DNA of 64,000 bases from contig CANJIM010000005.1 of the NCBI GenBank assembly GCA_947474495.1, positions 27 through 64,026 of the forward strand. The letters are read 5' to 3'. Made by a program: the position numbers and the translations under genes. The DNA comes from Rhodospirillaceae bacterium. GTDB lineage: Bacteria > Pseudomonadota > Alphaproteobacteria > SMXQ01. Within the stretch, counting starts at the first letter, position 1. Each line of letters opens with the position of its first letter. Under the pieces are notes generated by a model. It did no database searches, was not told the origin of the DNA, and saw only the letters and a list, made by a program, of their open reading frames with translations. This document shows, piece after piece, positions 46,872 to 59,571 of this stretch.

Positions 46872-47387
46872 TTAAAGCGGGTAGACGATCGTAGCCGGCA
46901 CCATTTCCGAATCATAGACGCAGAGACGCTCTTTCAGTTTCAACGCGCCGCCTTGGCGCGTGAAAATGTCCATGTAGCGGCCGGCGTTGAGAATCTTGGT
47001 GTATTCGCCGGGCAGCGTCTCCAGCACCTGATAGTTCGCTTCGGCCCGTACCGTGTCGCCCCCCGTCGCGTCATGGGCCACGCTGCGGATGCGCGTGTTG
47101 GTGATGAAATGGCGCAGGTAGCGCTTGCGGTAGACCGTCGTCTTGGTGACGCCGACGACACGGTCGGTCAGGCCGCCATGGCCCTCGGCGTAAATCACCG
47201 CGAGCGGCAGGTTCTGTTCGAGGTTCTCGCGCGGCAGCACCTTGTAGATGCAGTCCGGCGTGAAGAAGCCGATCCAGTCGTTCAAATCGCCGTCGTCGAG
47301 GCAATCGGCATAGGCGGTATTGAATTCATCGATCTCAGCGCGGAGCGCGGCAAGGTCTTCGGCGCGGAGCTTGGTGGTCGTGGTCAT
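46872..47387 (-). CDS. Aromatic-ring-hydroxylating oxygenase beta (small, NTF2-like) subunit
   Basis: DEFNTAYADCLDDGDLNDWIGFFTPDCIYKV...RHFITNTRI...GRYMD is typical of the small subunit. The ATG lies 2 nt after the alpha stop; the alternative TTG at 47393 overlaps it. Confidence 0.85.
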   Translation of the reverse strand: MTTTTKLRAEDLAALRAEIDEFNTAYADCLDDGDLNDWIGFFTPDCIYKVLPRENLEQNLPLAVIYAEGHGGLTDRVVGVTKTTVYRKRYLRHFITNTRIRSVAHDATGGDTVRAEANYQVLETLPGEYTKILNAGRYMDIFTRQGGALKLKERLCVYDSEMVPATIVYPL

Positions 47388-47389
47388 GT

Positions 47390-48643
47390 TCAAAGCCCCA
47401 TCACTTTGCGGTAGCCGTCATAGAAGGCGCGAATCGCCGTTTCGGTGACCATATGGTCGGTATCCTCGACGCCGCGCCCACCCATCTCGACCACCGCGTC
47501 GCTGGCGGCATATTTCGAGATGCCGGCCTGGATCGCTTCCATCACTTCCGAATCGTCGGCCGAGACATAGCCAGCCGGGCCCATCAGATTGGCCTGGCGC
47601 AAGCGCTTCTGCGTCATTTCCTCGGACTCGTCGGCGAAACCGAAGTAGGTCCAGTGAAGTTCGAACTCTTCCGGGCCGACGAGATGAATCTGGCGCATCG
47701 CCAGCGTGTTGGACTGCTGCTGCACCATCAGGTTCGGCCAGATGGTCTGCATCACCACGGTTGCTTCGCCAGGGAATTCTTTTTCCGGCTGTAGCATCAG
47801 AGGATTGGCGAGGGTGAAACTCGCCTGGTTCTGACGGATGTCGGCGGTTGTGTCGTCGGCCTTCTTCTCGCCGCGCTGCGAGACCAGCACGGAATGCAGG
47901 CCGAGCTTCTCGTCCATCTGCACCTTCGACGGGTTGTCGGCGCGGAACAGGCTGAAGGAGACGAGGAACACATGCAGCAGGGAGGCGTGGTAGGGGTCCT
48001 TGATATTCTCGAACACCAGCTTCCAATTGCAGCGGATGCGTTGGCGCTGATAGCCGAGCACCTTCAACGGACGGCCGCTGAAAACACGGTCGAACCAGCC
48101 GACCATCTTGGGACCGATATATTCCTCGAACGACGGCATGGAATGATCGAAGCTGGCGAAGATCACGCCGTGGCGCGTCGCCACTTTCAGCTTCTGCAGG
48201 CCGTTCGCCTTCATGTCGAAGTCGCCCGGCATGCCGCCCTGCTTTTGCAGACCGCGGCGGAAGGGCACGGCGGTGGTCTCGCCCTTCAGATTGTAAGTCC
48301 ACTGATGGTAGGGGCAGATGAATTCGGTTTTGCCAGAGCCGTGCATGTCGTAGCAGAACTGCACGCCGCGATGGGCGCAGCGATTGACCACGACCTGCAC
48401 CTGACCGTCCTCGTCGCGCATGAAGATCACAGGCTTGTCGCCGACCTTGGTCTGGCGGAAGTCGCCAGGCTTCGGAATTTCGCATTCAAGGCCAATGTAA
48501 TTGTAGCTGGCGCCGCCGAACACCATCTCCTGCTCGCGCTTGTAAATCTCCGGCGAGGAATAGACCCAATAGGGCACCCGCGACGGGCCTTCCTTCGGCC
48601 ATTTGAGATTGAGCAAATTGTCGGTCTGTACGGCGGTGGCCAT
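47390..48643 (-). CDS. Rieske non-haem iron oxygenase alpha (large) subunit
   Basis: Rieske CAHRGVQFC...CPYHQWTY. Iron site NWKLVFENIKDPYHASLLH. The ATG at 48643 has CAGGGA 8 nt upstream; the tracked ORF starts at 48652. Confidence 0.9.
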   Translation of the reverse strand: MATAVQTDNLLNLKWPKEGPSRVPYWVYSSPEIYKREQEMVFGGASYNYIGLECEIPKPGDFRQTKVGDKPVIFMRDEDGQVQVVVNRCAHRGVQFCYDMHGSGKTEFICPYHQWTYNLKGETTAVPFRRGLQKQGGMPGDFDMKANGLQKLKVATRHGVIFASFDHSMPSFEEYIGPKMVGWFDRVFSGRPLKVLGYQRQRIRCNWKLVFENIKDPYHASLLHVFLVSFSLFRADNPSKVQMDEKLGLHSVLVSQRGEKKADDTTADIRQNQASFTLANPLMLQPEKEFPGEATVVMQTIWPNLMVQQQSNTLAMRQIHLVGPEEFELHWTYFGFADESEEMTQKRLRQANLMGPAGYVSADDSEVMEAIQAGISKYAASDAVVEMGGRGVEDTDHMVTETAIRAFYDGYRKVMGL

Positions 48644-48780
48644 CGGTCGCATCCCTGTTCTGTATGCCGGTAGCTGCGGCGGGTGTCCGGAGACGCTGGG
48701 GCGACGATGGGCTTTTGGCCGGACATCGCGGGAGTTGATCCCGTCATTCGTCCCGCAGCGTGAGTGGCTCTCCTGAACAA

Positions 48781-48795
48781 AGATTAGATATCAAA
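48781..48795. promoter_or_regulatory. Operator candidate S2: AGATTAGATATCAAA
   Basis: It contains the same 12-mer ATTAGATATCAA as S1. Its centre is about 147 bp upstream of the oxygenase alpha start, in the divergent spacer. Confidence 0.55.
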
Positions 48796-48969
48796 TTAAA
48801 TTCGCCGGAGCAAGCGGAACGGCTCTGCCAGCAGCATTTGTGACCTGCAGTTTCTTCAGCGTGACCAGGTTTGCGTGATTTTTTTGCGGATGCGCAATGC
48901 AGCAGTTATGCGCAGCTAATTTGAGTGTCGGAAAAAATCCGGCTTGGGCGGGCGAAAAAGCCGTGCCTA

Positions 48970-48985
48970 TGATTAGACATCTAAC
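48970..48985. promoter_or_regulatory. Operator candidate S3: TGATTAGACATCTAAC
   Basis: TTAGACATCTAA matches the palindrome TTAGATATCTAA at 11 of 12 positions. Its centre is about 147 bp upstream of the TAXI-TRAP SBP ATG. Confidence 0.55.
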
Positions 48986-49124
48986 GGCTGGCGGAGGTGG
49001 GGATCATTACCCGCCCGGCAATCGACCAGCCGACGGGGAGAGACGTTCCAGAAGATCGCCATAACGGATCGATCCGCGCCGCAGAACGTCGGCGCGAACA
49101 GAAATCGACAGGAAGGACTGGGAG

Positions 49125-50123
49125 ATGCGGAAGATCGCTTTAGCATGCGCGGCCGTTGCCGGCATGACCTTCGCAATGATGTCGGGCGCCGTTCAGGCGC
49201 AGCCCTATCAGATCTCGCTGGCCGGCGCGAGCCCGGGCGGTTTGTGGTCGAACATCGGCATCGGCATGGATCAGGTGATGAAGGCCGCCTATCCCGGCTC
49301 GACCGTCACCTATCAGACCACCGGCGGCGGCTTCGCCAACGCCATCCTCTTGCAGCAGAAAAAGGTGCCGATCGGCATTATCCACAATGTGGAGCTGAGG
49401 ATGGCGCAGAACGGCGTCGATCCTTTCAAAGCGCCGATCACGGAGATTCGTCCGCTCGCTTATCTTTACGATTGGTCGCCGTTTCAGCTCCTCCTGACCA
49501 AGGACTTCGCCGACAAGTACGGGATCAAGACGTTCGAGGATCTGATCGTCAAGAAGGCGCCGGTGCGCATGGTACTCAACCGCCGCGGCAACGTCGCCCA
49601 TGACGTCGCCATCAGCATGCTGAAGGTCAACGGCGCCAGCCTTGACGACATCAAGGCCTGGGGGGGCAACGTCGTGCTCGCTGGCTCGGAAGAGCAGAGC
49701 GACTTGATGAAGGACCGCCGCGTCGACATGATCTTCAACAGCCTGTTCGTCGGCATCCGCTCGCTCGTCGAAGTTGGCACGTCAGTCAACGTCGTCATGT
49801 TGCCGGTCGGCAAGGAGACCGTCGACAAGGTCGGCAAGGAGATGGGCACGGATCCCTATGTTATTAAGGCCAACTCCTACCCGTTCCAGCCAAGCGATGT
49901 CCCGACGCTGACCATGGGCGCCTTCGTCGCGGCCAACAAAGACATGCCGGACGCGCAGGCTCAGGCAATCACCAAGGCTCTCATCGAGAAGATCGACGCC
50001 ATGCGCGCCGTGCATCCGTCGATGAAGGAATTGACGCCGCAGCTGCTGCCCAGTCTGGCCGGCAATTTCCCCTACCATCCCGGTGCCATCGCAGCCTACA
50101 AGGCGGCCGGCTTGATGAAGTGA
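49125..50123 (+). CDS. TAXI-family TRAP transporter solute-binding protein
   Basis: Signal peptide MRKIALACAAVAGMTFAMMSGAVQA. ISLAGASPGGLWSNIGIGM and YQTTGGGFANAILL are typical of the TAXI/immunogenic-protein family. Confidence 0.8.
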   Translation: MRKIALACAAVAGMTFAMMSGAVQAQPYQISLAGASPGGLWSNIGIGMDQVMKAAYPGSTVTYQTTGGGFANAILLQQKKVPIGIIHNVELRMAQNGVDPFKAPITEIRPLAYLYDWSPFQLLLTKDFADKYGIKTFEDLIVKKAPVRMVLNRRGNVAHDVAISMLKVNGASLDDIKAWGGNVVLAGSEEQSDLMKDRRVDMIFNSLFVGIRSLVEVGTSVNVVMLPVGKETVDKVGKEMGTDPYVIKANSYPFQPSDVPTLTMGAFVAANKDMPDAQAQAITKALIEKIDAMRAVHPSMKELTPQLLPSLAGNFPYHPGAIAAYKAAGLMK

Positions 50124-50160
50124 GTCGAGCCTAGTCTATTCGTCAGTCGGAGTTCGTTCA

Positions 50161-51999
50161 GTGTCCGTCGCGGAAGTTCTGTTCAGCACCGGCATGCAGC
50201 GCCAGCTTTCGCCGGCGATGGATGCTGCGGTTAAACCGGTCGGTGTGGCGATCACCTGCGGGGTGATCTATTCCACGGTCATCGCCACGCCCGACCTGTT
50301 CGCCATGACGACGATCTTCCTGTCGGCGGTGCTGGCGCTCTGCTTCCTCACCATCACGCCGACGTCGAAGGAAGCCGATCGCATCCATCCGATCGATTGG
50401 CTGTTGGCGACGGCGTCGGTGGCGGTCGGCATCTTCTTCGCCATGAATACGAAGATGCTGATCGAGCGCATCGCCCTGTTCGACGATCTGTCGACGCAGG
50501 AGATGATTTTCGGAAGTCTGCTGCTGTTCCTGGTGGTAGAAATTTCGCGGCGCGCGACCGGCCTTGGCCTCACTGTGCTGGTACTGATGTTTTTCGCCTA
50601 TAACCTATGGGGCCATGTCCTGCCCGGCGCCATGGGCCACGGCTATATCTCCTACGGCCATTTCCTCGACCTCATCGCTTTTACCACCGACGGCATCTTC
50701 GGCGGACCGCTGCGCGTTGCGGCGACCTACGCCTTCCTCTTCGTGCTGTTCGGCGCTGTGCTCAACAAGGCCAAGGGTGGCGAGTTCTTCTTCGATATTG
50801 CCTCGGCCATGACCGGCCGCGCCGTCGGCGGCCCAGCCAAGATCGCCGTGGTCTCATCCGGCCTCTATGGCACCATCTCGGGCAATCCGGTGGCCGACGT
50901 GGTGACCACCGGCGCCGTGACCATTCCGGTGATGAAGCGCCTCGGCTATCCCGCCGCGCTCGCCGGCGGCATCGAGGTCGCGGCCTCGACCGGCGGCAGC
51001 TTGGCGCCGCCAGTGATGGGCTCTGCCGCTTTCATCATGGCGGAATACACCAGCATTCCCTATGCCGACATCGCCATTGCGGCGACCCTGCCGGCCTTCC
51101 TTTATTACCTCGGCGTCTACGCCCAAGTGCATCTCTACGCCGCCAAGCACAAGCTGCGCGGCCTGGAGGACGAAGTGCTGCCGAAGGTGCTGCCGACGCT
51201 GTTGCGCGGTTGGGTTTTCATCGTGCCGCTGGTGGTGCTCGTCGTCTTCATCATTCTCGGCTATTCCGCCAACCTGACGGCGATCGGCGCGACCATTGCC
51301 GTTTTCCTGATGACGCTGTTCGACAAGCGCACGCGGCTCGGCGTGATTGCCATTTATGACGTGCTGGCGGAGGCGGCGCTCCGCATGGTGCCGGTGGCCG
51401 GCGCTTGCGCCGCGGCCGGGCTTATCGTTGGCGCACTCAGCATGACAGGGCTCTCGGTGAAATTCGTCGACGTCATCACGCTGCTGACCGGCGACAGCCT
51501 GTTCCTCACCCTACTTGTTACCGCGCTGCTCACGCTGCTGCTCGGCCTCGGCTTGCCGACCTCGAGCTCTTACATCCTGGCCGCCGTGCTGATCGCGCCA
51601 GTGTTGACCAGGCTCGGCCTCTCGGTGATGGCCGCGCATATGTTCATTCTCTATTACGCCGTGCTGTCGGCGCTGACGCCGCCGGTCGCAGTGGCGGGCT
51701 ATGCCGCGGCGGCCATCGCGCAGGCCAATCCGCTGACGATCTCGGTGCTGGCCTGCCGCATGTCGATCGTCGCTTTTATCGCGCCCTTCAGCTTCGCCTA
51801 TGGCGAGTCGCTGTTGCTGGTCGGTGAATGGTACGTGATCCTCGCCACTTTGATCTCCGCGTCGCTCGGCGTGATCCTGTTGGCGGTTGGGTTGGAAGGC
51901 TATTTCCGCCAGCCGTTGAACAGGCCCTTGCGCGCGCTGGCCGCTATAGCCGGCTTGGTGTTCCTAGCGCCGGCGGCGTTCTACTCGATTTTCGATTAA
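50161..51999 (+). CDS. TRAP transporter fused permease (TAXI-type small+large membrane component)
   Basis: 612 aa, highly hydrophobic throughout. It directly follows the TAXI SBP. GTG start, uncertain. Confidence 0.8.
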   Translation: MSVAEVLFSTGMQRQLSPAMDAAVKPVGVAITCGVIYSTVIATPDLFAMTTIFLSAVLALCFLTITPTSKEADRIHPIDWLLATASVAVGIFFAMNTKMLIERIALFDDLSTQEMIFGSLLLFLVVEISRRATGLGLTVLVLMFFAYNLWGHVLPGAMGHGYISYGHFLDLIAFTTDGIFGGPLRVAATYAFLFVLFGAVLNKAKGGEFFFDIASAMTGRAVGGPAKIAVVSSGLYGTISGNPVADVVTTGAVTIPVMKRLGYPAALAGGIEVAASTGGSLAPPVMGSAAFIMAEYTSIPYADIAIAATLPAFLYYLGVYAQVHLYAAKHKLRGLEDEVLPKVLPTLLRGWVFIVPLVVLVVFIILGYSANLTAIGATIAVFLMTLFDKRTRLGVIAIYDVLAEAALRMVPVAGACAAAGLIVGALSMTGLSVKFVDVITLLTGDSLFLTLLVTALLTLLLGLGLPTSSSYILAAVLIAPVLTRLGLSVMAAHMFILYYAVLSALTPPVAVAGYAAAAIAQANPLTISVLACRMSIVAFIAPFSFAYGESLLLVGEWYVILATLISASLGVILLAVGLEGYFRQPLNRPLRALAAIAGLVFLAPAAFYSIFD

Positions 52000-53075
52000 T
52001 CGCGCAGCTTCAGCGTCCGCATCGTCCACAACAGGCAGGCGAGCAAGACGACGGCGGCGGCCTGATGCAGGGCGCCGAGCGATACGGGGACGGCGGTGAT
52101 CAGCGTGGCGATCCCGAGTGTCGGTTGGATCACGGCCATGGCGAGCAGCGCGCCCGTCGCCTGTTTGGCGGCGCGCGGCGGCGCCTTGCTCCGGGCATAG
52201 AGCGCGAAGGCAATCAGCGACACCGCCGTCGTCACCGCAAGCCAGCGGTGGTTGAACTGCACCGCGGGAATGTTCTCGAACAGGTTGTGCCAGAACGGCG
52301 AGAGGGTGGCGTAACCCTCCGGCACGAAGCGGCCGTCCATCAGGGGGAACGTGTTGTAGGTCAGGCCAGCATCGAGCCCGGCGACGAAGCCGCCGCTGGC
52401 AATGGTGACCACCAGCAACAGCGCCAGCGGATGGGCGAGCGCGCGCAAGCGGCGCGCGTCATTGGAAAAGCCGCCGTCGATGGCCGTCCAGCCGTCGTTG
52501 GGGCGCAGGCGGGCGAGCGCCAGCCACAAGAGCCAGCCGAACACGGCGAGCGCCAGGAGAAGATGCGCGGTCAGACGATAGGGACTGACGCGCGGATCGT
52601 TGACCAGGCCGCTTTTCACCATGAACCAGCCGAGCGCGCCCTGGGCGCCGCCGAGGACGAACAGCACGGCGACTTGACCGAGCAACTTGCCGCGCAGCCA
52701 GCCCTTGAGGAAAAAGACGAGGGCCGGCAGGGCGAAGACGAGGCCGATCAGCCGGCCCCAGAGGCGATGGATATATTCGAGCCAGAAGATGCCTTTGAAG
52801 TCGGCCAGGGTCATGCCGGCGTTGACCTTCTGGTACTCGGGATACTGGCGGTACTTGTCGAACAGCTCCTGCCAATGGGCTTGGTTGAGCGGCGGCAGGG
52901 CGCCCATCAGGGGCTGCCATTCGACGATCGAGAGGCCCGATTCGGTCAGCCGGGTCACGCCGCCGATCACCACCATGACGAAGACCATGGCCGCCGATAG
53001 GGCGAGCCAGGCGCCGATCAGGCGGTCCGGGGCAGGGATGGGATTGGGGGCGGTGAGGGACGCGGTGGCGGACAT
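51996..53075 (-). CDS. ctaA: Haem A synthase (COX15/CtaA)
   Basis: ATG at 53075 (MSATASL). VTRLTESGLSIVEWQPLMG...HWQELFDKYRQYPEY...EYIHRLWGR are COX15 hallmarks. Confidence 0.85.
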   Translation of the reverse strand: MSATASLTAPNPIPAPDRLIGAWLALSAAMVFVMVVIGGVTRLTESGLSIVEWQPLMGALPPLNQAHWQELFDKYRQYPEYQKVNAGMTLADFKGIFWLEYIHRLWGRLIGLVFALPALVFFLKGWLRGKLLGQVAVLFVLGGAQGALGWFMVKSGLVNDPRVSPYRLTAHLLLALAVFGWLLWLALARLRPNDGWTAIDGGFSNDARRLRALAHPLALLLVVTIASGGFVAGLDAGLTYNTFPLMDGRFVPEGYATLSPFWHNLFENIPAVQFNHRWLAVTTAVSLIAFALYARSKAPPRAAKQATGALLAMAVIQPTLGIATLITAVPVSLGALHQAAAVVLLACLLWTMRTLKLRD

Positions 53076-53209
53076 ATGGGCACCTGACGCGGCTGACGGG
53101 GGCGGGGCAGATATGCGCGTCGGAGACCCCAGATGCAAGGATTGCCAAGCCAAATCGAGCATAATAACAAAATATTATTGTAGTATATTCTATTTCACAG
53201 CGCGGGCCG

Positions 53210-53237
53210 TTGACTTTGAGGTCTTGCTGGTCATAAT
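53210..53237 (+). promoter_or_regulatory. Sigma70-like promoter candidate for the siroheme-reductase gene
   Basis: TTGACT, a 16-nt spacer, then CATAAT, ending 48 nt before the ATG at 53285. An AT-rich inverted repeat ATAATA-N6-TATTAT (53161-53178) lies upstream. Confidence 0.45.
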
Positions 53238-53284
53238 GCGCGCCAGTTGAGCGCCCCTTCATCCGGGGGCGAGGGAGATTCCGC

Positions 53285-55453
53285 ATGTCCGAGACCTTCG
53301 ATCTGGCTGCCGCCGCGCGCAGCCGGCAAGCCCCGCCCTCATTCGACGAAGCCAACGGCCTCGAGCCCTTGGCGCGCGTCACCGACGCCGATGAGTTCCG
53401 CGCCGCCTATGCCAAGGTAAAGTCGGGCGAATGGGACGCCACCAAATGGCAGGGCTTCCGCCTGCGCTTCGGCCTTTACGGCCAGCTGCAGCCCAACGTC
53501 CACATGCTGCGTATCAAGATACCGGGCGGTCTGCTGCCGTTCGATTGGGCGCGCACCGTCGCCGAGGCCAACCGCAAGTTTGCCGGCGCCAAGATCCACG
53601 TCTCGACGCGCCAGGACCTGCAGATCTATTTCATCAAGCCGGACGACGCGCCGGACCTGCTGCAGTTCCTCTATGAGCGCGGCCTGACCTCGCGCGAGGC
53701 CTGCGGCAATACGCTGCGCAACATGACCTCCTGCCAGCTCGCCGGCATCTGCCCGCGCGAGCATGTCGACGCCGGAAAGGTCGCCGACCGCCTGGCGCTG
53801 AGCTGGATCCGCCATCCGCTGGTTCAGCATATGCCGCGCAAGTTCAAGATCACCGTGTCGGGCTGCGAGACCGATTGCGCCTCGTCGTCGATTCATGATC
53901 TCGGCCTCGTCGCCGTGCGCGACGCACAGGGCCGTGCCGGCTTCAAGGCCTATGCTGGTGGCGGCACCGGCGGCATCGCCGTGCCGGCCTCGCTGGTCGC
54001 CGATTTCGTCGAAGAGAAAGACCTGCCCGCCGTGGTCGAGGCTTTGGTGCGCATCCATCAGCGCTATTCCAACCGCCGCAATCGCAATCAGGCGCGCATC
54101 AAGTTCGTCAACAAGCGCTTCGGGGCCGCGAAGTTCCGTGCCCTGTTCGAGGAAGAATTCGCCCGCACCAAGACGATGCCGCAGCGCCCGTGGCAGCCGC
54201 TCGAGTGGCGCCAGGGCGAGAACGCCCCGGAGCCGACGTCGCCCGGCGGCGTCGTGCATCAGCATGACGGCAATTTCTCGGTCGTGGCCAAGCCGGAGCT
54301 TGGTCTGCTGACGTCCGACGAGATGGACCAGTTCGTCGCCATCGCCGAACAGAACGGCGCGACGCGCCTGCGCACCACGCGCGACCAGAACCTCGTCATC
54401 GAAGGCCTCAAGCAGGGCGTCGTCGAGAAGGTCGTCGCCGCCGTGCGCGCCCTCGGCTTCGGCATCGAGAATCATGCGGGCGATGTCGCCAACGTCATCG
54501 CCTGCCCAGGCACCACGACCTGCGGCATCGGCATTACCACTTCGCAGACCTTCGGTCTCGAAGTGCAGGAACTGGCCACCAACTACAAGGCCAAGCCGAA
54601 CCTCAACATCAAGATCTCCGGCTGCCAGAACGGCTGCGGCCTGCATCACGTGGCGGACTTTGGCTTCCGCGGCATGGGCAAGAAGATCGGTTCGCGCAAC
54701 GCGCCGCATTACCAGATCTATGTCGGCGGCGAAGAGCGCAAGAACGGCCATCTCGGCCTGTTGGGTCCGGTCGTGCCGGCCCGCCTCGCCAAGCGCGCGC
54801 TTGAGCTGTTGCTCGACGGCTATGCCGCCGGCAAGCAGGGCGACGAAAGCGTGCGCGACTGGTCTCTGCGTCTCGGCAAGGACGGTATCCGCGCCTTGAT
54901 CGAGCCGGTCGAGCGCGAAGTCGATCCGGCGAACGAAGGCCTGTTCTTCGACTTCGGCGAAGACTGGGAATTCATGCCGCCGGCCGGCCGCACCGCCGAA
55001 TGCGCCGCCGCCACGGCGGACGATGACGTGCAGAAGGATCTGGCCGACGACGCGCTGATCTCGACCGACCGCGCGCTCGCCGCCGGGCAGAGTGATCGCG
55101 CCCGCGAATTCGCCGACCTCGGCTTCCGTTACTCGGCCCAGCGCTTGCGCATTCGCGCCATGATGCCGGGCGCCGAGGACGATACCGAGGATATGGCGAT
55201 CAGCGGCGTGCGCACCGCCTATGCCGGCGACGCCGAGGTGATCGGCGCGCTCGACGGCTACCTGGCGACGCGCGCCAAATTGAGCACGAAGGACGGCCAA
55301 GTGGACGCCCTGCGCGAGGCGCTCGCCCTGTGGCAGGACACCGTCGAGGACGTCATCGCCAAGCCGGCCGCCGCAGCAGGCTTTGCCGGCTTCGGGTCTG
55401 GCCTCGACGATTCGGCCGGCAGCTCCGTTCTCGACATGATCAAGGGCAAGTAG
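53285..55453 (+). CDS. Nitrite/sulfite-reductase-family sirohaem/[4Fe-4S] protein, 722 aa, with a C-terminal extension
   Basis: C-terminal half: ACPGTTTCG...GCQNGCG (C-x5-C...C-x3-C). The N-terminal half has the same pattern: SCQLAGIC...GCETDC. About 150 extra C-terminal residues. Confidence 0.8.
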   Translation: MSETFDLAAAARSRQAPPSFDEANGLEPLARVTDADEFRAAYAKVKSGEWDATKWQGFRLRFGLYGQLQPNVHMLRIKIPGGLLPFDWARTVAEANRKFAGAKIHVSTRQDLQIYFIKPDDAPDLLQFLYERGLTSREACGNTLRNMTSCQLAGICPREHVDAGKVADRLALSWIRHPLVQHMPRKFKITVSGCETDCASSSIHDLGLVAVRDAQGRAGFKAYAGGGTGGIAVPASLVADFVEEKDLPAVVEALVRIHQRYSNRRNRNQARIKFVNKRFGAAKFRALFEEEFARTKTMPQRPWQPLEWRQGENAPEPTSPGGVVHQHDGNFSVVAKPELGLLTSDEMDQFVAIAEQNGATRLRTTRDQNLVIEGLKQGVVEKVVAAVRALGFGIENHAGDVANVIACPGTTTCGIGITTSQTFGLEVQELATNYKAKPNLNIKISGCQNGCGLHHVADFGFRGMGKKIGSRNAPHYQIYVGGEERKNGHLGLLGPVVPARLAKRALELLLDGYAAGKQGDESVRDWSLRLGKDGIRALIEPVEREVDPANEGLFFDFGEDWEFMPPAGRTAECAAATADDDVQKDLADDALISTDRALAAGQSDRAREFADLGFRYSAQRLRIRAMMPGAEDDTEDMAISGVRTAYAGDAEVIGALDGYLATRAKLSTKDGQVDALREALALWQDTVEDVIAKPAAAAGFAGFGSGLDDSAGSSVLDMIKGK

Positions 55454-55508
55454 CGCCGTTTGATCCGGGCTGGCCGATCTAGGCCAGCCACCCCATATGC
55501 TGTAAATA

Positions 55509-55557
55509 GGGCGCGCCGGCAGTCATGCGTGACTGGCCCGGCGCGCCCCTTCTTTCA
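55509..55557 (+). terminator. Long bulged hairpin + T-rich tract between the reductase and flavoprotein genes (terminator or attenuator candidate)
   Basis: GGGCGCGCCGGCAGTCA-tgcg-TGACTG(gc)CCGGCGCGCCC followed by CTTCTTTC. 17 paired positions with a 2-nt bulge. Confidence 0.5.
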
Positions 55558-55589
55558 CAGAAGCTCTTTCACAAAAGCCGCTTGCCGTC

Positions 55590-58500
55590 ATGACCCAGTC
55601 CGCCGCGCCCCTGAACCTCTCTCACGGCCTCGCCTTCGCCGATCTTTATGCGCGGGATGGCTTGGTGAAGCTCGACGGCGCCTTCGTCGCGCATCTGCAG
55701 ACGGCGGACGTCGAGCTGTTCAACCGCCTGATGGCGGCGCGAGCCACGCCGGGTGCGGTCGAGGACAAGGACGAATCGGCGCTGATCATCGATCTCGCGC
55801 CGCATCTGGAAGACTTCCTCAGCGGCCTGTTCGGCATCCAGGACGAATTGCGCGCGCTGGCTGGCAAGCATGACGCGCTGGCGCCGCTCTACGAAGTGAA
55901 GCGGCTGTTCGTGCAGCGCCGCGCCGTGAAGCGATTCAAGCCTGATGAATTGGCGGCGCTCGACATTGCGCCGATCGAAGCGGCGCTGATCGCCAAACTG
56001 GGCGTGCCGATCACCGAAGAGACATTCGCCAACGCCGTGCTCGTTTGGCAGAACGACGAGGCCGCGAACAAAGAGGCGCTCGATCTCGCCGAAGCGTTCG
56101 CCGCCTGGGCGACGCTGCATTCGGTCGGCCAGGCTCGCTTCGCCGCTGGCGTGCTGTTCAAGGTGCCGAAGAAGCTCGACTTCCAGCATCTCGTGCCGGT
56201 CGAGACCGAGCAGCGCGACGGCGTGACGATGATCCGCCTGTCGCCGCACCATTGGCGTCAGCGCCAGGGCTTTGCGCTGACCGACAGCGGCATGGACCTC
56301 AAGGCCGCGCTCGATCAGGCCAACTACTGCATCTTCTGCCATAACCAGGGCAAGGATTCCTGCTCGAAGGGCCTGAAGGACCGCAAGACCGGCGCCTATC
56401 AGAAGAGCCCGTTCGGCGTGACCTTGGCCGGCTGTCCGCTCGAAGAGAAAATCTCCGAGATGAACAGCCTCAAATCGGCGGGCCATACGCTCGGCGCGCT
56501 CGCCGTCGTCGTGATCGACAATCCGATGACGGCCGGCACCGGCCATCGCATCTGCAACGATTGCATGAAGTCCTGCATCTATCAGAAGCAGGAGCCGGTC
56601 AATATCCCGCAGGTTGAGACGCGCACGCTGAAAGACGTGCTGGCGCTGCCCTGGGGCTTCGAGCTTTACAGCCTGCTGACGCGCTGGAATCCGCTCAACA
56701 TCCATCGGCCGCTGCCGAAGGTCGATGCCGGCTACAAGGTGCTGGTCGTCGGCCTGGGACCTGCCGGCTACACGCTCGCCCATCATTTGATGAACGATGG
56801 CCACACGGTCGTCGCCGTCGACGGCTTGAAGATCGAGCCCTTGCCGCAGGATATCTCCGGCGTGGCGCTCGACGGTTCGCGCGTGCCGTTCAAGCCGATT
56901 CGCGACATCGCCGAACTGACCGAGCCCTTGGGCGATCGCGCCATGGCCGGTTTCGGCGGCGTCGCCGAATACGGCATCACCGTGCGCTGGGACAAGAACT
57001 TCCTCAAGATCGTGCGCCTGCTGTTGGAGCGCCGCGCCAGCTTCGCCATGTTCGGCGGCGTCCGCTTCGGCGGCACCTTGACCATCGAGTCGGCCTTGGC
57101 GCGCGGCTTCGACCATATCGCGCTCTGCGCCGGCGCAGGCCGTCCGACCTTCATCGAAATGCCGAACGCGCTGGCGCGCGGCGTGCGGCAGGCGTCCGAC
57201 TTCCTGATGGGCTTGCAGCTCACCGGCGCGGCCAAGCCGGGCTCGCTCGCCAATCTGCAAGTGCGATTGCCGGTCGTCGTCATCGGCGGCGGCCTCACCG
57301 CCATCGACACGGCCACCGAATCGCTCGCCTACTACCCGGTGCAGGTCGAGAAGTTCCTGCTGCGCTACGAGACCCTTGTCGCCGAGCGCGGCGAGGCGAA
57401 GGTGCGCGCCGCCTGGAATCCGGAAGATACGATCATCGCCGACGAATTCCTCGCACACGCACGCGCCATTCGCGCCGAGCGTGAAGCGGCTGCGAAAGAG
57501 AAGCGCGAAGCGAACCTGATCAAGCTGCTGCGCTCCTGGGGCGGCGCGACGCTGGCCTATCGCCGTTGGATGACCGACAGCCCGAGCTACACGCTGAACC
57601 ACGAGGAAGTGGAAAAGGCGATGGAAGAGGGCATCGATTTCGCTGAGGGCTTGAGCCCGGTCGAGATCGAGGTCGACGAGTTCGGCCATGCCCGCGCCAT
57701 CACCTGCGCCCGTATGGAAGCGGGCGACGACGGCCGCCTGGTGGATAGCGGCAAGACCGTGCAGTTGCCGGCCAAGAGCGTGCTGATCGCCGCCGGCACC
57801 CAGCCCAACACCGTGTTGGCGCGCGAAGACGCTGCCCACATGACGCTCGACGGCAAGTATTTCCGCGCTCTCGATGAAGACGGCAACCCGGCGACGCCGG
57901 AGAAGCTCGCCAAGCCCGAACAAGTGCGCGTGCTGACCGCCATCGAGCCGGACGGCCGTGCCGTGAGCTTCTTCGGCGATCTGCATCCGTCCTTCGCCGG
58001 CAATGTCGTTAAGGCCATGGGCAGCGCCAAGCAGGGCTATCCGGTGGTCAGCCGCGTGCTCGCCAAGCGGGCGCCGACCGCCGTGAAACCGGCCGATCTC
58101 GTCGCCGACATGAACCGCGCCCTGCGCGCCACGGTCCATGCGGTCAATCGCCTGACGCCGACGATCATCGAGGTGGTTATCCATGCGCCGCTCGCCGCCA
58201 AGAATTTCGAGCCGGGCCAGTTCTACCGCCTGCAGAATTTCGAGAGCCTGGCGCCGCGCATTGACGGCACGATCCTGAATATGGAAGGCCTGGCGCTGAC
58301 CGGCGCCTGGGTCAACCGCGACAAGGGCCTGATCTCCGTCATCGCTTTGGAGATGGGCGGCTCATCTGATCTTTGCGCCTCGCTCAAGATCGGCGAGCCG
58401 GTGATCCTGATGGGTCCGACGGGCTCGGCGACCGAGACGCCGGCGGGCGAGACCGTGCTGCTGGTCGGCGGCGGCCTTGGCAACGCCGTGCTGTTCTCGA

Positions 58501-59105
58501 TCGGCCAGGCGCTGCGCGCCGCCGGTTCGAAGGTGCTCTACTTCGCCGGGTACAAGAAGCTGATCGACCGCTACAAGGTCGAGCAGATCGAAGCGGCGGC
58601 CGATGTGGTGATCTGGTGCTCGGACGAAGGTCCCGGCTTCGAGCCGACGCGGCCGCAGGACAAGCGCTTCGTCGGCAATATCGTCGAGGCGATGGTCTCT
58701 TATGGCTCGGGCGCGCTCGGCAACATCCCGATCAAGCTCGACCGCGTCAACCGCATCATCGCCATTGGCTCGGACGGCATGATGGCGGCCGTCGGCCGTT
58801 CGCGCCACACGGTGCTGAAGCCTTATCTGCGCCCCGATCATCAAGCCTTCGGCAGCATCAACTCGCCGATGCAGTGCATGATGAAGGAAATCTGCGCCCA
58901 GTGTTTGCAGACTCATACCGACCCGATCACCGGAAAGAGCCATGTTGTCTTCACCTGCTACAACCAGGATCAGCGGCTCGACGTGGTGGATTTCCGATCT
59001 TTGCGCGAACGTCTGGGGCAAAATCGCGCGCAGGAGAAACTGACGGCGCAATGGATTGACCGCTGCCTGAAGCGCCTCAATCTGCGCGCCACGGCCGCTG
59101 AATAA
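55590..59105 (+). CDS. 1171-aa iron-sulfur flavoprotein: unknown N-domain + GltD/NfnB-like module + PyrK/NfnA-like module
   Basis: Cys clusters CIFCHNQGKDSC...GCPLEE and CNDCMKSC. Dinucleotide folds VLVVGLGPAGY and VVVIGGGLTAID. FNR-like module (FEPGQFYRLQNFE, VLLVGGGLGNAV). PyrK-type 2Fe-2S motif C-x5-C-x2-C...C (CMMKEICAQC...FTCYN). Confidence 0.75.
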   Translation: MTQSAAPLNLSHGLAFADLYARDGLVKLDGAFVAHLQTADVELFNRLMAARATPGAVEDKDESALIIDLAPHLEDFLSGLFGIQDELRALAGKHDALAPLYEVKRLFVQRRAVKRFKPDELAALDIAPIEAALIAKLGVPITEETFANAVLVWQNDEAANKEALDLAEAFAAWATLHSVGQARFAAGVLFKVPKKLDFQHLVPVETEQRDGVTMIRLSPHHWRQRQGFALTDSGMDLKAALDQANYCIFCHNQGKDSCSKGLKDRKTGAYQKSPFGVTLAGCPLEEKISEMNSLKSAGHTLGALAVVVIDNPMTAGTGHRICNDCMKSCIYQKQEPVNIPQVETRTLKDVLALPWGFELYSLLTRWNPLNIHRPLPKVDAGYKVLVVGLGPAGYTLAHHLMNDGHTVVAVDGLKIEPLPQDISGVALDGSRVPFKPIRDIAELTEPLGDRAMAGFGGVAEYGITVRWDKNFLKIVRLLLERRASFAMFGGVRFGGTLTIESALARGFDHIALCAGAGRPTFIEMPNALARGVRQASDFLMGLQLTGAAKPGSLANLQVRLPVVVIGGGLTAIDTATESLAYYPVQVEKFLLRYETLVAERGEAKVRAAWNPEDTIIADEFLAHARAIRAEREAAAKEKREANLIKLLRSWGGATLAYRRWMTDSPSYTLNHEEVEKAMEEGIDFAEGLSPVEIEVDEFGHARAITCARMEAGDDGRLVDSGKTVQLPAKSVLIAAGTQPNTVLAREDAAHMTLDGKYFRALDEDGNPATPEKLAKPEQVRVLTAIEPDGRAVSFFGDLHPSFAGNVVKAMGSAKQGYPVVSRVLAKRAPTAVKPADLVADMNRALRATVHAVNRLTPTIIEVVIHAPLAAKNFEPGQFYRLQNFESLAPRIDGTILNMEGLALTGAWVNRDKGLISVIALEMGGSSDLCASLKIGEPVILMGPTGSATETPAGETVLLVGGGLGNAVLFSIGQALRAAGSKVLYFAGYKKLIDRYKVEQIEAAADVVIWCSDEGPGFEPTRPQDKRFVGNIVEAMVSYGSGALGNIPIKLDRVNRIIAIGSDGMMAAVGRSRHTVLKPYLRPDHQAFGSINSPMQCMMKEICAQCLQTHTDPITGKSHVVFTCYNQDQRLDVVDFRSLRERLGQNRAQEKLTAQWIDRCLKRLNLRATAAE

Positions 59106-59124
59106 GCGCCGGCCGAATAGCCTG

Positions 59125-59571
59125 ATGTCCGCCGAATCCCGCGCCCAGATCACTGCTGACATCGTCGCCCGCACGGGAATCGACGAGGCGATGATCGAGC
59201 GCTTGGTGCGGGGCTTTTACGCCAAGGTGCAAGAGGACGATCTCATCGGGCCAGTGTTCGCCGCGCGCATCAAAGACTGGGAACCGCATCTCCAGCGCAT
59301 GTTCGCCTTCTGGTCGTCGGTCGCGCTGCTCAACGGCCGCTATAGCGGCACGCCGATGCCCATCCATATGAAGCTGCCGGTCGATGCGGCGCATTTCGAC
59401 CGCTGGCTGATGGTGTTCGAGGCGACGGCGCGCGAGCTTTGCCCACCGGCTGCCGCCGATCATTTCCTCGAGCGGGCGCGCAATATCGCCAATAGCCTGG
59501 AGATGGGCGTGGCCATGGGGCAGGGCGTAGCCCTGCGCAAAGGCGAGCGCTTCTATCGGACGGAGAGTTGA
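59125..59571 (+). CDS. Group III truncated haemoglobin
   Basis: IDEAMIERLVRGFYAKVQEDDLIGPVFAARIKDWEPHLQRMFAFWSSVALLNGRYSGTPMPIHMKL...HFDRWL matches the trHb-III pattern as I recall it. Confidence 0.75.
   Translation: MSAESRAQITADIVARTGIDEAMIERLVRGFYAKVQEDDLIGPVFAARIKDWEPHLQRMFAFWSSVALLNGRYSGTPMPIHMKLPVDAAHFDRWLMVFEATARELCPPAAADHFLERARNIANSLEMGVAMGQGVALRKGERFYRTES

What the first reader, a model, noticed from the sequence alone, without database searches (positions are those of the whole stretch)
53210..59571. Sirohaem reductase with cluster-ligand motifs in both half-domains, next to a fused GltD/NfnB-PyrK/NfnA-like flavoprotein and a truncated haemoglobin
Three adjacent co-directional genes make up this locus. 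(i) The first is a 722-aa nitrite/sulfite-reductase-family protein. The canonical C-x5-C...C-x3-C sirohaem/[4Fe-4S] ligand pattern occurs in the C-terminal half (ACPGTTTCG...GCQNGCG). It also occurs, with similar spacing, in the N-terminal half (SCQLAGIC...GCETDC). In assimilatory CysI/NirA enzymes only one pseudo-symmetric half keeps these ligands, as far as I recall. A tail of about 150 aa of unknown function follows (nt 54980-55450). (ii) The second is a 1171-aa protein with an unknown N-domain of about 250 aa. This is fused to a GltD/NfnB-like module (Cys clusters and two dinucleotide folds) and a PyrK/NfnA-like FNR module with a C-x5-C-x2-C...C 2Fe-2S site. That is the cofactor architecture of SudAB/NfnAB-type oxidoreductases in a single chain. 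No CysJ-like flavoprotein or ferredoxin gene is nearby, so this protein is a candidate dedicated electron donor. (iii) The third is a group III truncated haemoglobin, 19 nt downstream. A haemoglobin linked to a flavoprotein and an N-oxide reductase recalls the Bradyrhizobium nitrate-assimilation/NO-detoxification operon logic, as I remember it. Here the components are different. The locus may be a novel NAD(P)H-linked nitrite/sulfite (or NO/hydroxylamine) reducing system.
Basis: partly seen in the sequence, partly recalled or inferred. Interest (0 to 1): 0.72.

Follow-up and report, generated by a model that had tools for sequence, protein, structure and literature searches.

The report
Two-cluster-motif sulfite reductase with flavoprotein neighbour
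The locus most likely encodes a sulfur-assimilating sulfite reductase from a large, unstudied branch of the family that still carries iron-sulfur ligand motifs in both of its halves; the big flavoprotein next door is a plausible but unproven electron supplier, and the haemoglobin gene is a recent, non-conserved neighbour.

Summary
Three co-directional genes sit at the stated coordinates, with the stated lengths and motifs.

Gene 1 is a sirohaem reductase. Its N-half CX5C...CX3C motif lies at positions homologous to the C-half cluster ligands. The motif is invariant in 80 family members and complete in 86 of 146 distant representatives.

The N-oxide/haemoglobin reading is not supported.
- In 49 of 57 more distant relatives the gene heads an operon with cysH, usually cysH-cysD-cysNC.
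- Some relatives are fused to PAPS reductase or TusA.
- The substrate-site Lys-x-Lys is the sulfite-reductase type.

So this is an assimilatory sulfite reductase. It also has an unreported conserved G-E-C-A cysteine and a helical tail.

The flavoprotein is NfnB+NfnA-like and belongs to the uncharacterised RP005/PRK06567 family. That family is widespread and usually stands alone. It follows this reductase in about 20 related genomes. It also closes an independent operon headed by a canonical cysI. This makes it a plausible CysJ substitute. The adjacency could instead be inherited gene order beside ctaA.

The group III globin is present in only 4 of 7 closest genomes and is unlinked elsewhere.

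Verdict: a new variant of a known kind, of moderate interest.

The parts
53163..53237 (+). Regulatory region of the reductase gene. It holds an AT-rich ACA-N9-TGT palindrome, a TTCTATTTCACA element, and a sigma-70-like promoter (TTGACT at 53210, CATAAT ending at 53237).
   Evidence: Promoter scan scored 10 of 12. The -35, the -10 and the upstream element are conserved in 8 related genomes.
53285..55453 (+). Sirohaem sulfite reductase haemoprotein, 722 aa, of an uncharacterised clade.
   Evidence: Pfam NIR_SIR x2 and NIR_SIR_ferr x2. AF2 model pLDDT 88.6. Best fold match M. tuberculosis NirA/SirA, 1zj8, E 7e-32. Orthologues head operons starting with cysH, mostly cysH-cysD-cysNC.
53732..53878 (+). 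N-half CX5C...CX3C motif (C150, C156, C194, C198), a putative second [4Fe-4S] site.
   Evidence: Invariant in 80 sequences. Homologous to the C-half ligands. Absent in NiR/NirA/CysI. Complete in 86 of 146 distant representatives.
54503..54637 (+). Canonical C-half CX5C...CX3C motif (C407, C413, C447, C451), ligands of the sirohaem-coupled [4Fe-4S] cluster.
   Evidence: Aligns with the cluster Cys of 3b0h and 1zj8. Invariant.
54998..55006 (+). Conserved E572-C573-A574 ('GECA') motif just after the reductase core.
   Evidence: Invariant in the family. Cys present in 124 of 149 representatives; 50 of those proteins end 0-5 residues after it.
55019..55360 (+). C-terminal five-helix domain (aa 579-692) of unknown function.
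   Evidence: Five helices between aa 579 and 692 in the AF2 model, most 10-residue blocks with mean pLDDT 82-97. No PDB or Pfam match. In relatives the same position links the core to TusA or PAPS-reductase domains.
55468..55556 (+). Two stem-loops in the 136-nt spacer. The second, GGGCGCGCCGG...CCGGCGCGCCC followed by TTCTTTC, looks like a terminator or attenuator.
   Evidence: MFE -56.8 kcal/mol, z -4.2. The stem is conserved in 6 genomes, with a compensatory change in L001.
55590..59105 (+). Fe-S flavoprotein of 1171 aa. Modules: RP005_N helical domain (aa 1 to about 250); a region with seven invariant Cys (aa 247-329); an NfnB/GltD-like FAD/NAD(P)H module; and an NfnA/PyrK-like FNR module with a C-x5-C-x2-C...C site (aa 1096-1123).
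   Evidence: NCBIfam PRK06567, 797 bits. Pfam RP005_N, precomputed. PDB and Foldseek hits to NfnAB/Xfn. Invariant Cys.
59125..59571 (+). Group III truncated haemoglobin, 148 aa, 19 nt after the flavoprotein gene. A lineage-specific insertion.
   Evidence: Pfam Bac_globin. Best PDB match 2ig3, Ctb. Present in L002, L004, L005 and L007 but absent in L001, L003 and L006.
51996..53162 (-). Haem A synthase CtaA, divergent upstream neighbour (context).
   Evidence: Pfam COX15-CtaA. NCBIfam alphaproteobacterial CtaA, 293 bits, below the 550 cut-off. Also found next to the flavoprotein gene in 8 loci that lack the reductase.

Best explanation
Gene 1 encodes the haemoprotein of an assimilatory sulfite reductase, taking sulfite to sulfide or sulfane sulfur for cysteine synthesis. 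It belongs to a large, uncharacterised, ferredoxin-type (NirA/Sir-like) clade. Catalysis occurs at the canonical site: the C-half [4Fe-4S]-sirohaem centre plus R76, R145, K186 and K188.

The N half has kept the ancestral four-Cys motif and probably binds a second [4Fe-4S] cluster. That cluster would be structural or electron-relaying rather than part of a second active site, because the mirror positions of the four anion-binding residues are V, A, N and N. A conserved G-E-C-A cysteine and a helical tail follow the core. Their role is unknown.

Electrons are inferred to come from NAD(P)H through the downstream NfnB+NfnA-like Fe-S flavoprotein, either directly or through a ferredoxin encoded elsewhere. 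This flavoprotein is a general, widely conserved alphaproteobacterial reductase (RP005 family). In this lineage it would serve the sulfite reductase as one of several clients, taking the place of the absent CysJ.

The truncated haemoglobin is a recently acquired gene, probably co-transcribed with the flavoprotein. It is not part of the sulfite-reducing system.

Shown: gene structure, motifs and their conservation, fold, operon contexts, fusions.
Inferred: cofactor content of the N half, substrate in this organism, electron path.
For: Sulfite reductase identity:
- Fold and sequence are closest to M. tuberculosis NirA/SirA and to plant NiR/SiR.
- The K186-x-K188 pair matches sulfite reductases; tobacco NiR has Asn at the second position.
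- 49 of 57 more distant family loci have cysH directly downstream, most with cysD and cysNC as well.
- Relatives are fused to PAPS reductase or TusA.
- A sirohaem-synthesis gene (sirC-like) follows the reductase gene in 19 loci.

Second cluster motif.

Flavoprotein as donor:
- It is adjacent in 20 of 21 informative close loci, with nothing, sirC or cysHDNC in between.
- L127 is independent: a canonical CysI (PRK13504, 677 bits, above the 457 cut-off) followed by sirC-cysH-cysD-cysNC-flavoprotein, with gaps of 0-30 nt and no ctaA.
- It has an NfnAB-type fold and Cys ligands.
- No cysJ or ferredoxin motif is present in the window.
- Precedents exist. DsrL is an iron-sulfur flavoprotein that carries electrons between NADH and the sirohaem enzyme rDsrAB (Loffler 2020, cited in PMC10839748); that it is GltD/NfnB-like is my recollection. 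Alphaproteobacteria lack cysJ and their donor is unresolved (bioRxiv 10.1101/072470).
Against: - In the window's own clade cysH, cysD and cysN are not within 10 kb, nor anywhere in the window. The substrate assignment therefore rests on orthology.
- The flavoprotein family is far larger than the reductase family and about 70% identical across lineages. Its N-domain family is named after Rickettsia RP005.
- In 78 of 80 metagenome loci, and in 6 of 6 long-contig look-ups, it has no reductase neighbour.
- Every reductase-flavoprotein adjacency of this family with enough upstream sequence also has ctaA upstream. ctaA-flavoprotein pairs occur without the reductase, so inherited gene order could explain the adjacency.
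- A conserved terminator-like hairpin separates the two genes here.
- Most family members (Magnetospirillum and relatives) have no flavoprotein within 10 kb.
- No cofactor or activity data exist.
Confidence: 0.6

Rival explanations
1. The adjacency is a relic of gene order. ctaA(-) and the flavoprotein(+) are old neighbours in Alphaproteobacteria, and the sulfur-assimilation genes were inserted between them. The reductase takes electrons from an ordinary ferredoxin/FNR pair encoded elsewhere. The flavoprotein has an unrelated housekeeping role.
For: - ctaA lies divergently next to the flavoprotein gene, with no reductase, in L081, L086, L089, L091, L106, L111, L122 and L134.
- All reductase-flavoprotein loci of this family with enough upstream sequence also carry ctaA upstream.
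- L022, L045, L029, L034 and L035 keep ctaA-SiR but have no flavoprotein.
- Neighbours of the flavoprotein are otherwise highly variable.
- A hairpin lies between the two genes.
- An alphaproteobacterial SiR (R. pomeroyi SPO2634) works in vitro with Fd plus FNR (PMC13188885).
Against: - L127 places the flavoprotein at the end of an unrelated, tightly packed cysI operon without ctaA.
- Three different insert contents all keep the flavoprotein co-directional and closely spaced: 29-60 nt after cysNC in L040 and L026, and about 55-95 nt after sirC.
Confidence: 0.3
2. One reading: a nitrite, NO or hydroxylamine reducing and detoxifying system in which reductase, flavoprotein and haemoglobin work together.
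For: - Sirohaem reductases commonly also reduce nitrite; Fsr prefers nitrite (PMC10229431).
- The globin is 19 nt downstream of the flavoprotein gene.
- A 48%-identical globin also sits near the flavoprotein gene in L089.
- The group III globin Ctb is linked to nitrosative stress (own knowledge).
Against: - No nitrate or nitrite assimilation genes were found in the part of the window examined (38-64 kb) or in relatives.
- All conserved partners are sulfur genes.
- The substrate site is K-x-K, not K-x-N.
- The globin is missing from L001, L003 and L006, whose reductases are 95%, 87% and 76% identical. It is unlinked in Afipia and Roseococcus.
Confidence: 0.05
3. The flavoprotein's main client is haem A synthase (CtaA), by analogy with Cox15 plus ferredoxin and ferredoxin reductase in mitochondria. 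Its position beside the reductase would then be incidental.
For: Divergent ctaA-flavoprotein pairs recur in at least 8 loci without the reductase and in all window-clade loci. The family is conserved in aerobic Alphaproteobacteria, including Rickettsia (by name only).
Against: About 70 of 80 sampled flavoprotein loci have no ctaA nearby. There is no experimental link. The Cox15 analogy comes from memory.
Confidence: 0.08
4. The N half binds a complete second sirohaem-[4Fe-4S] centre, giving two active sites per polypeptide.
For: All four Cys are conserved. The N half is the better NIR_SIR match. The C-half 'TTRDQN' mirrors the sirohaem-region motif 'TTRQDLQ' and keeps R366 within the family.
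Against: The mirror positions of R76, R145, K186 and K188 are V334, A402, N439 and N441. R366 is not conserved among distant representatives that keep the four Cys.
Confidence: 0.1

Closest known systems
Ferredoxin-dependent assimilatory sulfite reductases (M. tuberculosis NirA/SirA, 1zj8; plant SiR, 5h8v)
   Same: Monomeric two-repeat fold, C-half CX5C...CX3C, Arg/Arg/Lys/Lys anion site, role in sulfate assimilation. Best sequence and fold matches.
   Different: About 24% identity. The N half keeps a full four-Cys motif. There is an extra GECA cysteine and a helical tail of about 150 aa. No NCBIfam equivalog cut-off is reached.
E. coli CysIJ (NADPH sulfite reductase)
   Same: The same overall reaction is expected, with NAD(P)H as ultimate donor through a flavoprotein. 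In L127 the RP005-type flavoprotein sits where cysJ would, in an operon with a canonical CysI.
   Different: The flavoprotein is not a diflavin (FMN/FAD) reductase. It is an NfnB+NfnA-like Fe-S flavoprotein. The haemoprotein scores only about 58 bits against 1aop.
DsrAB with DsrL
   Same: Both repeats keep cluster-binding Cys, as DsrA and DsrB do, with one site likely non-catalytic (PMC10229431). DsrL is an iron-sulfur flavoprotein that links NAD(P)H to a sirohaem reductase (Loffler 2020, cited in PMC10839748); that it is GltD/NfnB-like is from memory.
   Different: Here there is a single fused chain, no inserted ferredoxin domains, and a CX5C motif rather than the DsrB type. The context is assimilatory. 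There is no DsrC, although a conserved C-terminal-region Cys exists.
NfnAB / SudAB / Xfn
   Same: The flavoprotein has both modules: two Cys-rich cluster sites plus FAD/NAD(P)H (NfnB), and FNR-like with [2Fe-2S] (NfnA). TM-score is up to 0.84 to 5jca_S.
   Different: The modules are fused in the order B then A. There is an added 250-aa RP005_N domain. The [2Fe-2S] site has four Cys. The hosts are aerobic. Activity is unknown.
AsrABC anaerobic sulfite reductase
   Same: A PyrK-like flavoprotein (AsrB) feeds a sirohaem subunit (AsrC). Own knowledge; AsrC model TIGR02912 is hit at 80 bits.
   Different: Different subunit set, an anaerobic dissimilatory-type role, and no GltD-like module.
DUF2849 and DUF934 partners of CysI in cysJ-less Proteobacteria
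   Same: They address the same gap, the missing donor or accessory protein for CysI (bioRxiv 10.1101/072470).
   Different: Pfam scans of the whole reductase and of its tail list neither domain, and the 136-nt spacer to the flavoprotein gene holds no ORF.
C. jejuni Ctb (group III truncated haemoglobin)
   Same: Best PDB match. In the alignment a His (Ctb 'KKHLDLP' / query 'PIHMKLP'), a Tyr ('FYEKV' / 'FYAKV'), a Trp ('EIWLKLF' / 'DRWLMVF') and a second His ('KEHKAK' / 'EPHLQR') are matched. I take these, from memory, to be the proximal His, B10 Tyr, G8 Trp and E7 His.
   Different: Alphaproteobacterial orthologue family. No regulatory or functional data.

Membership tests
Assimilatory sirohaem sulfite reductase haemoprotein (aSiR) | Two tandem sulfite/nitrite-reductase repeats (NIR_SIR_ferr + NIR_SIR, twice) in one chain | tested here: met
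   Pfam. Internal duplication by hhalign, probability 95.7%. Fold match to 1zj8, 5h8y and 1aop.
Assimilatory sirohaem sulfite reductase haemoprotein (aSiR) | C-half CX5C...CX3C ligands of the sirohaem-coupled [4Fe-4S] cluster | tested here: met
   C407, C413, C447 and C451 are invariant and align to the cluster Cys of solved enzymes.
Assimilatory sirohaem sulfite reductase haemoprotein (aSiR) | Anion-binding Arg, Arg, Lys, Lys (E. coli R83, R153, K215, K217) | tested here: met
   R76, R145, K186 and K188 are invariant in the family and conserved in essentially all of the 149 representatives that cover them, with one His at R145.
Assimilatory sirohaem sulfite reductase haemoprotein (aSiR) | N-terminal repeat has lost its cluster-binding motif (textbook description, PMC10229431) | tested here: not met
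   C150, C156, C194 and C198 are present and invariant.
Assimilatory sirohaem sulfite reductase haemoprotein (aSiR) | Genomic linkage to sulfate-activation and reduction genes | tested here: inconclusive
   Met in 49 of 57 more distant orthologue loci and in fusion proteins. Not met in the window or its closest clade.
Assimilatory sirohaem sulfite reductase haemoprotein (aSiR) | Curated model cut-offs (CysI TIGR02041, Sir TIGR02042, PRK13504, PRK09567) | tested here: not met
   Scores 108, 97, 150 and 204 bits against cut-offs 757, 732, 457 and 523.
Assimilatory sirohaem sulfite reductase haemoprotein (aSiR) | Binds sirohaem and reduces sulfite by six electrons | not testable with these tools
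   Needs purified protein.
Ferredoxin-nitrite reductase (NirA) | Model PRK09566 cut-off; Lys-x-Asn at the substrate site; nitrate-assimilation context | tested here: not met
   174 bits against a 594 cut-off. K-x-K here, where tobacco NiR has K-x-N. No nas or nir genes found in the loci examined.
NfnAB/SudAB-type oxidoreductase | NfnB-like module: N-terminal Cys ligands for two [4Fe-4S] clusters, plus FAD and NAD(P)H folds | tested here: met
   Seven invariant Cys at aa 247-329. PDB hits 5vj7_A, 5jca_L and 4ylf_B. Foldseek.
NfnAB/SudAB-type oxidoreductase | NfnA-like FNR module with [2Fe-2S] | tested here: met
   Hits to 4ylf_A and 5jca_S. C1096, C1102, C1105 and C1123 are invariant.
NfnAB/SudAB-type oxidoreductase | Two separate subunits; ferredoxin-coupled NADH/NADPH activity (bifurcation) | not testable with these tools
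   Here a single chain with an extra N-domain. Activity is unknown.
RP005 / PRK06567 flavoprotein family | RP005_N domain followed by GltD-like and PyrK-like modules, length about 1030-1200 aa | tested here: met
   Precomputed Pfam PF27156 on a 100%-identical protein and on all listed homologues. The NCBIfam PRK06567 hit of 797 bits is below the equivalog cut-off of 1072.
Group III truncated haemoglobin | Bac_globin fold, best similarity to Ctb, and conservation of the residues I take from memory to be the proximal His, B10 Tyr, G8 Trp and E7 His | tested here: met
   Pfam 26.1 bits against a 21 cut-off. 2ig3 at E 4.5e-12 with those residues aligned. NCBI names orthologues 'group III truncated hemoglobin'.
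Conserved three-gene module (reductase + flavoprotein + globin) | Synteny of all three genes across related genomes | tested here: not met
   The globin is present only in L002, L004, L005 and L007.

The most novel reading that the evidence does not exclude
This clade is a surviving intermediate of sulfite-reductase evolution with three new properties:
1. It is a fused two-repeat assimilatory enzyme that still binds a second [4Fe-4S] cluster (possibly with a macrocycle) in its N half.
2. It carries a built-in DsrC-like cysteine arm (the G-E-C-A motif, C-terminal in the short forms). The arm would take the reduced sulfur as a persulfide and hand it to TusA-type carriers or to cysteine synthase.
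3. In Alphaproteobacteria it is driven by NAD(P)H through the RP005-type NfnAB-like flavoprotein.

The third point would reveal both the long-sought CysJ substitute and the function of a protein family conserved down to Rickettsia.
Probability: 0.15. Interest if true: 0.85.

Novelty: new variant of a known kind. Interest (0 to 1): 0.55.

Why it matters
Reviews and structural papers state that assimilatory sulfite reductases kept only one sirohaem-[4Fe-4S] site after duplication and fusion (PMC10229431). Here a large clade of environmental and culturable bacteria (Magnetospirillum, Phaeospirillum, Terasakiella) keeps the second ligand set. It also has an unreported, nearly universal cysteine motif after the core. 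That makes the evolutionary model, and the role of a second cluster, testable in culturable organisms.

Separately, the electron donor of CysI in the many bacteria that lack CysJ is still unresolved. Only small DUF2849 and DUF934 proteins have been proposed. The RP005/PRK06567 flavoprotein family has no known function. Its position at the end of two unrelated kinds of sulfate-assimilation operon gives a concrete candidate to test.

Tried and rejected
- Tail as a fused DUF934, DUF2849 or HEPN domain: the Pfam scan at E up to 10 found nothing, and Foldseek gave no significant match for the tail.
- PF26540, seen on some homologues: it is a faint GcpE_C hit on the N-half cluster domain, not a tail domain.
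- Literature on 'RP005', on GltD-PyrK fusions, on globin with sulfite reductase, and on TusA-sulfite reductase fusions: nothing relevant found.
- Sulfonate-derived sulfite as substrate source: the TPP enzyme at 38530-40359 is not Xsc (96 bits against a 676 cut-off). The upstream genes look like aromatic and amino-acid catabolism plus a TAXI-TRAP transporter.
- A ferredoxin gene in the window: the motif scan found none in any real ORF.
- Globin-flavoprotein linkage outside this clade: one further case (L089). Two orthologue contexts (Afipia, Roseococcus) are unlinked, and one look-up was not on record.

Full report
**1. Observation**

The three co-directional ORFs are as described: 53285-55453 (722 aa), 55590-59105 (1171 aa) and 59125-59571 (148 aa). 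The spacers are 136 nt and 19 nt.

Gene 1 carries NIR_SIR and NIR_SIR_ferr twice each. Both quoted Cys motifs are present, as CQLAGIC...CETDC and CPGTTTC...CQNGC.

A profile-profile alignment of the two halves is significant (probability 95.7%, E 3.8e-9). It places C150, C156, C194 and C198 exactly opposite the C-half ligands C407, C413, C447 and C451.

In alignments to solved enzymes the C-half Cys match the known cluster ligands. The N-half positions are Asn/Asp or Ser/Ser, and non-Cys, in tobacco NiR and M. tuberculosis NirA. They are also absent from a canonical CysI.

All eight Cys, plus C140 and C573, are invariant in 80 homologues down to 49% identity. The feature is real and under selection.

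**2. What gene 1 is**

The AF2 model is confident (pLDDT 88.6, pTM 0.88). Its best structural neighbours are, in order:
- M. tuberculosis NirA/SirA (E 7e-32);
- plant NiR and SiR;
- E. coli SiRHP;
- more distantly, Fsr and DsrAB.

The four anion-binding residues (R76, R145, K186, K188) are invariant. The second lysine is Asn in tobacco NiR, so the site is of the sulfite type.

Context is decisive. I examined 80 genomic loci encoding relatives. Of the 57 more distant ones (47-58% identity by best aligned segment; two split matches read 60-63%), 49 have cysH immediately downstream, most with cysD and cysNC as well. These include Magnetospirillum, Paramagnetospirillum and Terasakiella. Most of the rest are truncated contigs.

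Among 149 representatives of 50%-identity clusters:
- two are fused to a PAPS-reductase domain;
- 28 carry a C-terminal GVxCPxN motif, and four of four tested have a Pfam TusA domain.

A sirC-like gene (precorrin-2 dehydrogenase/ferrochelatase) follows the reductase gene in 19 loci.

The protein is therefore an assimilatory sulfite reductase haemoprotein. One caveat applies: in the window's own clade the cysHDN genes are not nearby.

No NCBIfam equivalog cut-off is reached by it or by nine diverse relatives. The clade is annotated only as 'nitrite/sulfite reductase'.

**3. The second motif in context**

Here 86 of 146 distant representatives keep all four N-half Cys. Others show partial patterns (C-S-C-H, C-A-C-C) or complete loss (D-A-S-R). 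This pattern suggests an ancestral feature with repeated decay.

The mirror positions of the four anion-binding residues are V334, A402, N439 and N441. A second catalytic site is therefore unlikely.

R366 mirrors the sirohaem-region R109. It is conserved within the family but not across the wider clade.

I infer a second, sirohaem-free [4Fe-4S] cluster. Whether it is structural or a relay cannot be decided without coordinates or protein.

**4. Tail**

After the core comes a motif D-x-G...G-E-C-A (E572-C573-A574).
- The Cys is present in 124 of 149 representatives.
- In 50 of these the protein ends 0-5 residues later.

In the window's protein a five-helix domain follows, most of it modelled with high confidence. 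It has no known relatives. In other members the same region connects to TusA or PAPS reductase.

A cysteine on a C-terminal arm next to a sirohaem reductase recalls DsrC. A 2026 report claims that aSiRs release sulfane sulfur (PMC13188885), which would fit a persulfide relay. This is speculation.

**5. The flavoprotein**

Sequence and fold searches confirm the NfnB/GltD-like and NfnA/PyrK-like modules. The best matches are 5vj7, 5jca and 4ylf, with TM-score up to 0.84. Seven invariant Cys lie in the N-terminal cluster region and four in the C-terminal [2Fe-2S] motif.

The N-domain is Pfam RP005_N. The best NCBIfam model is PRK06567, at 797 bits against a 1072 cut-off.

The family is very large and about 70% identical across lineages.

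Its neighbours are highly variable:
- In six long-contig look-ups and 80 metagenome loci, only L092 and L127 have a sulfite reductase nearby.
- Eight loci have ctaA divergently adjacent, four of them with a MarR-like gene between.
- About 70 have neither.

**6. Is the reductase-flavoprotein adjacency functional?**

For:
- 20 of 21 informative close loci have the flavoprotein gene downstream, either directly or after sirC.
- L026 and L040 have it after cysHDNC, with gaps of 29-60 nt.
- L127 is independent. It encodes a canonical CysI (above the PRK13504 cut-off, with no N-half Cys) in the order cysI-sirC-cysH-cysD-cysNC-flavoprotein. The gaps are 0-30 nt, there is no ctaA, and pilus genes follow.

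Against:
- Every adjacency within this family with enough upstream sequence also has ctaA upstream.
- ctaA-flavoprotein pairs exist without the reductase.
- A conserved hairpin, with a compensatory change in L001 and followed by TTCTTTC, lies between the two genes here.
- Magnetospirillum-type loci have no flavoprotein within 10 kb.

I judge the donor role plausible (about 0.5) but as one client of a general reductase, not a dedicated partner. DsrL (NADH to rDsrAB; Loffler 2020, cited in PMC10839748) and AsrB are precedents. The unresolved donor in cysJ-less Alphaproteobacteria (bioRxiv 10.1101/072470) gives the idea relevance.

**7. The globin**

It is a group III truncated haemoglobin. The best PDB match is Ctb, with a His, a Tyr, a Trp and a second His matched in the alignment; I take these from memory to be the proximal His, B10 Tyr, G8 Trp and E7 His.

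It belongs to a widespread alphaproteobacterial family. Next to the flavoprotein gene it occurs only in L002, L004 and L005, and displaced in L007. It is absent from L001, L003 and L006, where TerB follows the flavoprotein directly. In L021, L023 and L088 a CMD/AhpD-like gene takes its place.

Orthologues in Afipia and Roseococcus lie in unrelated contexts. One further case (L089: ctaA(-), globin, MarR, flavoprotein) hints at a loose globin-flavoprotein association.

The globin is not part of a conserved reductase system.

**8. Verdict**

The locus is an assimilatory sulfite reductase of an undescribed two-motif clade, a plausible NfnAB-like electron supplier from an uncharacterised but known family, and an incidental globin.

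It is a new variant of a known kind, with interest about 0.55.

Noticed in passing
window 54998-55006; relatives P0241-P0389: A G-E-C-A motif after the reductase core is conserved in 124 of 149 distant representatives. In 50 of them it is essentially the C-terminus (...GECAx*), which recalls the cysteine arm of DsrC.
   Followed up: partly
P0250, P0264, P0267, P0350 (TusA); P0241, P0244 (PAPS reductase): Natural fusions of this reductase clade with a C-terminal TusA sulfur-carrier domain (28 representatives by motif) or with PAPS reductase. I found no literature on them.
   Followed up: partly
L127:2096-11453: The operon canonical cysI-sirC-cysH-cysD-cysNC-RP005-type flavoprotein, with gaps of 0-30 nt, on a metagenome contig with 57% GC. 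The flavoprotein occupies the place of cysJ.
   Followed up: yes
L081, L086, L089, L091, L106, L111, L122, L134; window 51996-53162: Haem A synthase ctaA lies divergently next to the RP005-type flavoprotein gene in many genomes without any sulfite reductase, often with a MarR gene between. This is either a possible functional link to haem A synthesis or simply old synteny.
   Followed up: partly
L008:12184-12744, L014:12075-12632 and 17 other loci: A 185-aa sirC-like gene (NAD_binding_7 + Sirohm_synth_M) sits immediately after the reductase gene. In 12 loci it lies between the reductase and the flavoprotein genes.
   Followed up: yes
window 53163-53237: The reductase promoter (-35 TTGAC, -10 CATAAT) and an upstream AT-rich ACA-N9-TGT palindrome plus TTCTATTTCACA are conserved in eight genomes. 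This is a likely operator for an unidentified regulator.
   Followed up: partly
window 55468-55556: Two strong stem-loops lie between the reductase and flavoprotein genes. The second is conserved in six genomes, with a compensatory change, and is followed by TTCTTTC. The start codon of the flavoprotein is only about 40 nt beyond it, so any promoter of its own would have to overlap the hairpin.
   Followed up: partly
L001 vs L002 (both 95% identical to the window's reductase): There is a presence/absence polymorphism of the globin gene between very close genomes. In L001 the flavoprotein gene is followed directly by TerB.
   Followed up: yes
L021/L088, L044, L051, L064, L078: MAGs labelled Gemmatimonas, Actinomycetota, Sulfotelmatobacter, Solirubrobacterales and Stygiobacter carry loci with alphaproteobacterial-type synteny and 47-65% identical reductases. 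This is probably binning contamination or horizontal transfer.
   Followed up: no
window 46872-51999: Upstream lie an AndAc-like Rieske dioxygenase (alpha and beta subunits, minus strand) and a TAXI-type TRAP transporter with a fused permease. The same block lies upstream of ctaA in L088, so the synteny extends beyond the finding.
   Followed up: partly
window 53702-53704 (C140): C140 ('EAC') aligns with Cys161 of M. tuberculosis NirA. From memory, that residue forms a Tyr-Cys cross-link near the sirohaem. C140 is invariant in the family but variable (C, G, S or A) in distant relatives.
   Followed up: no
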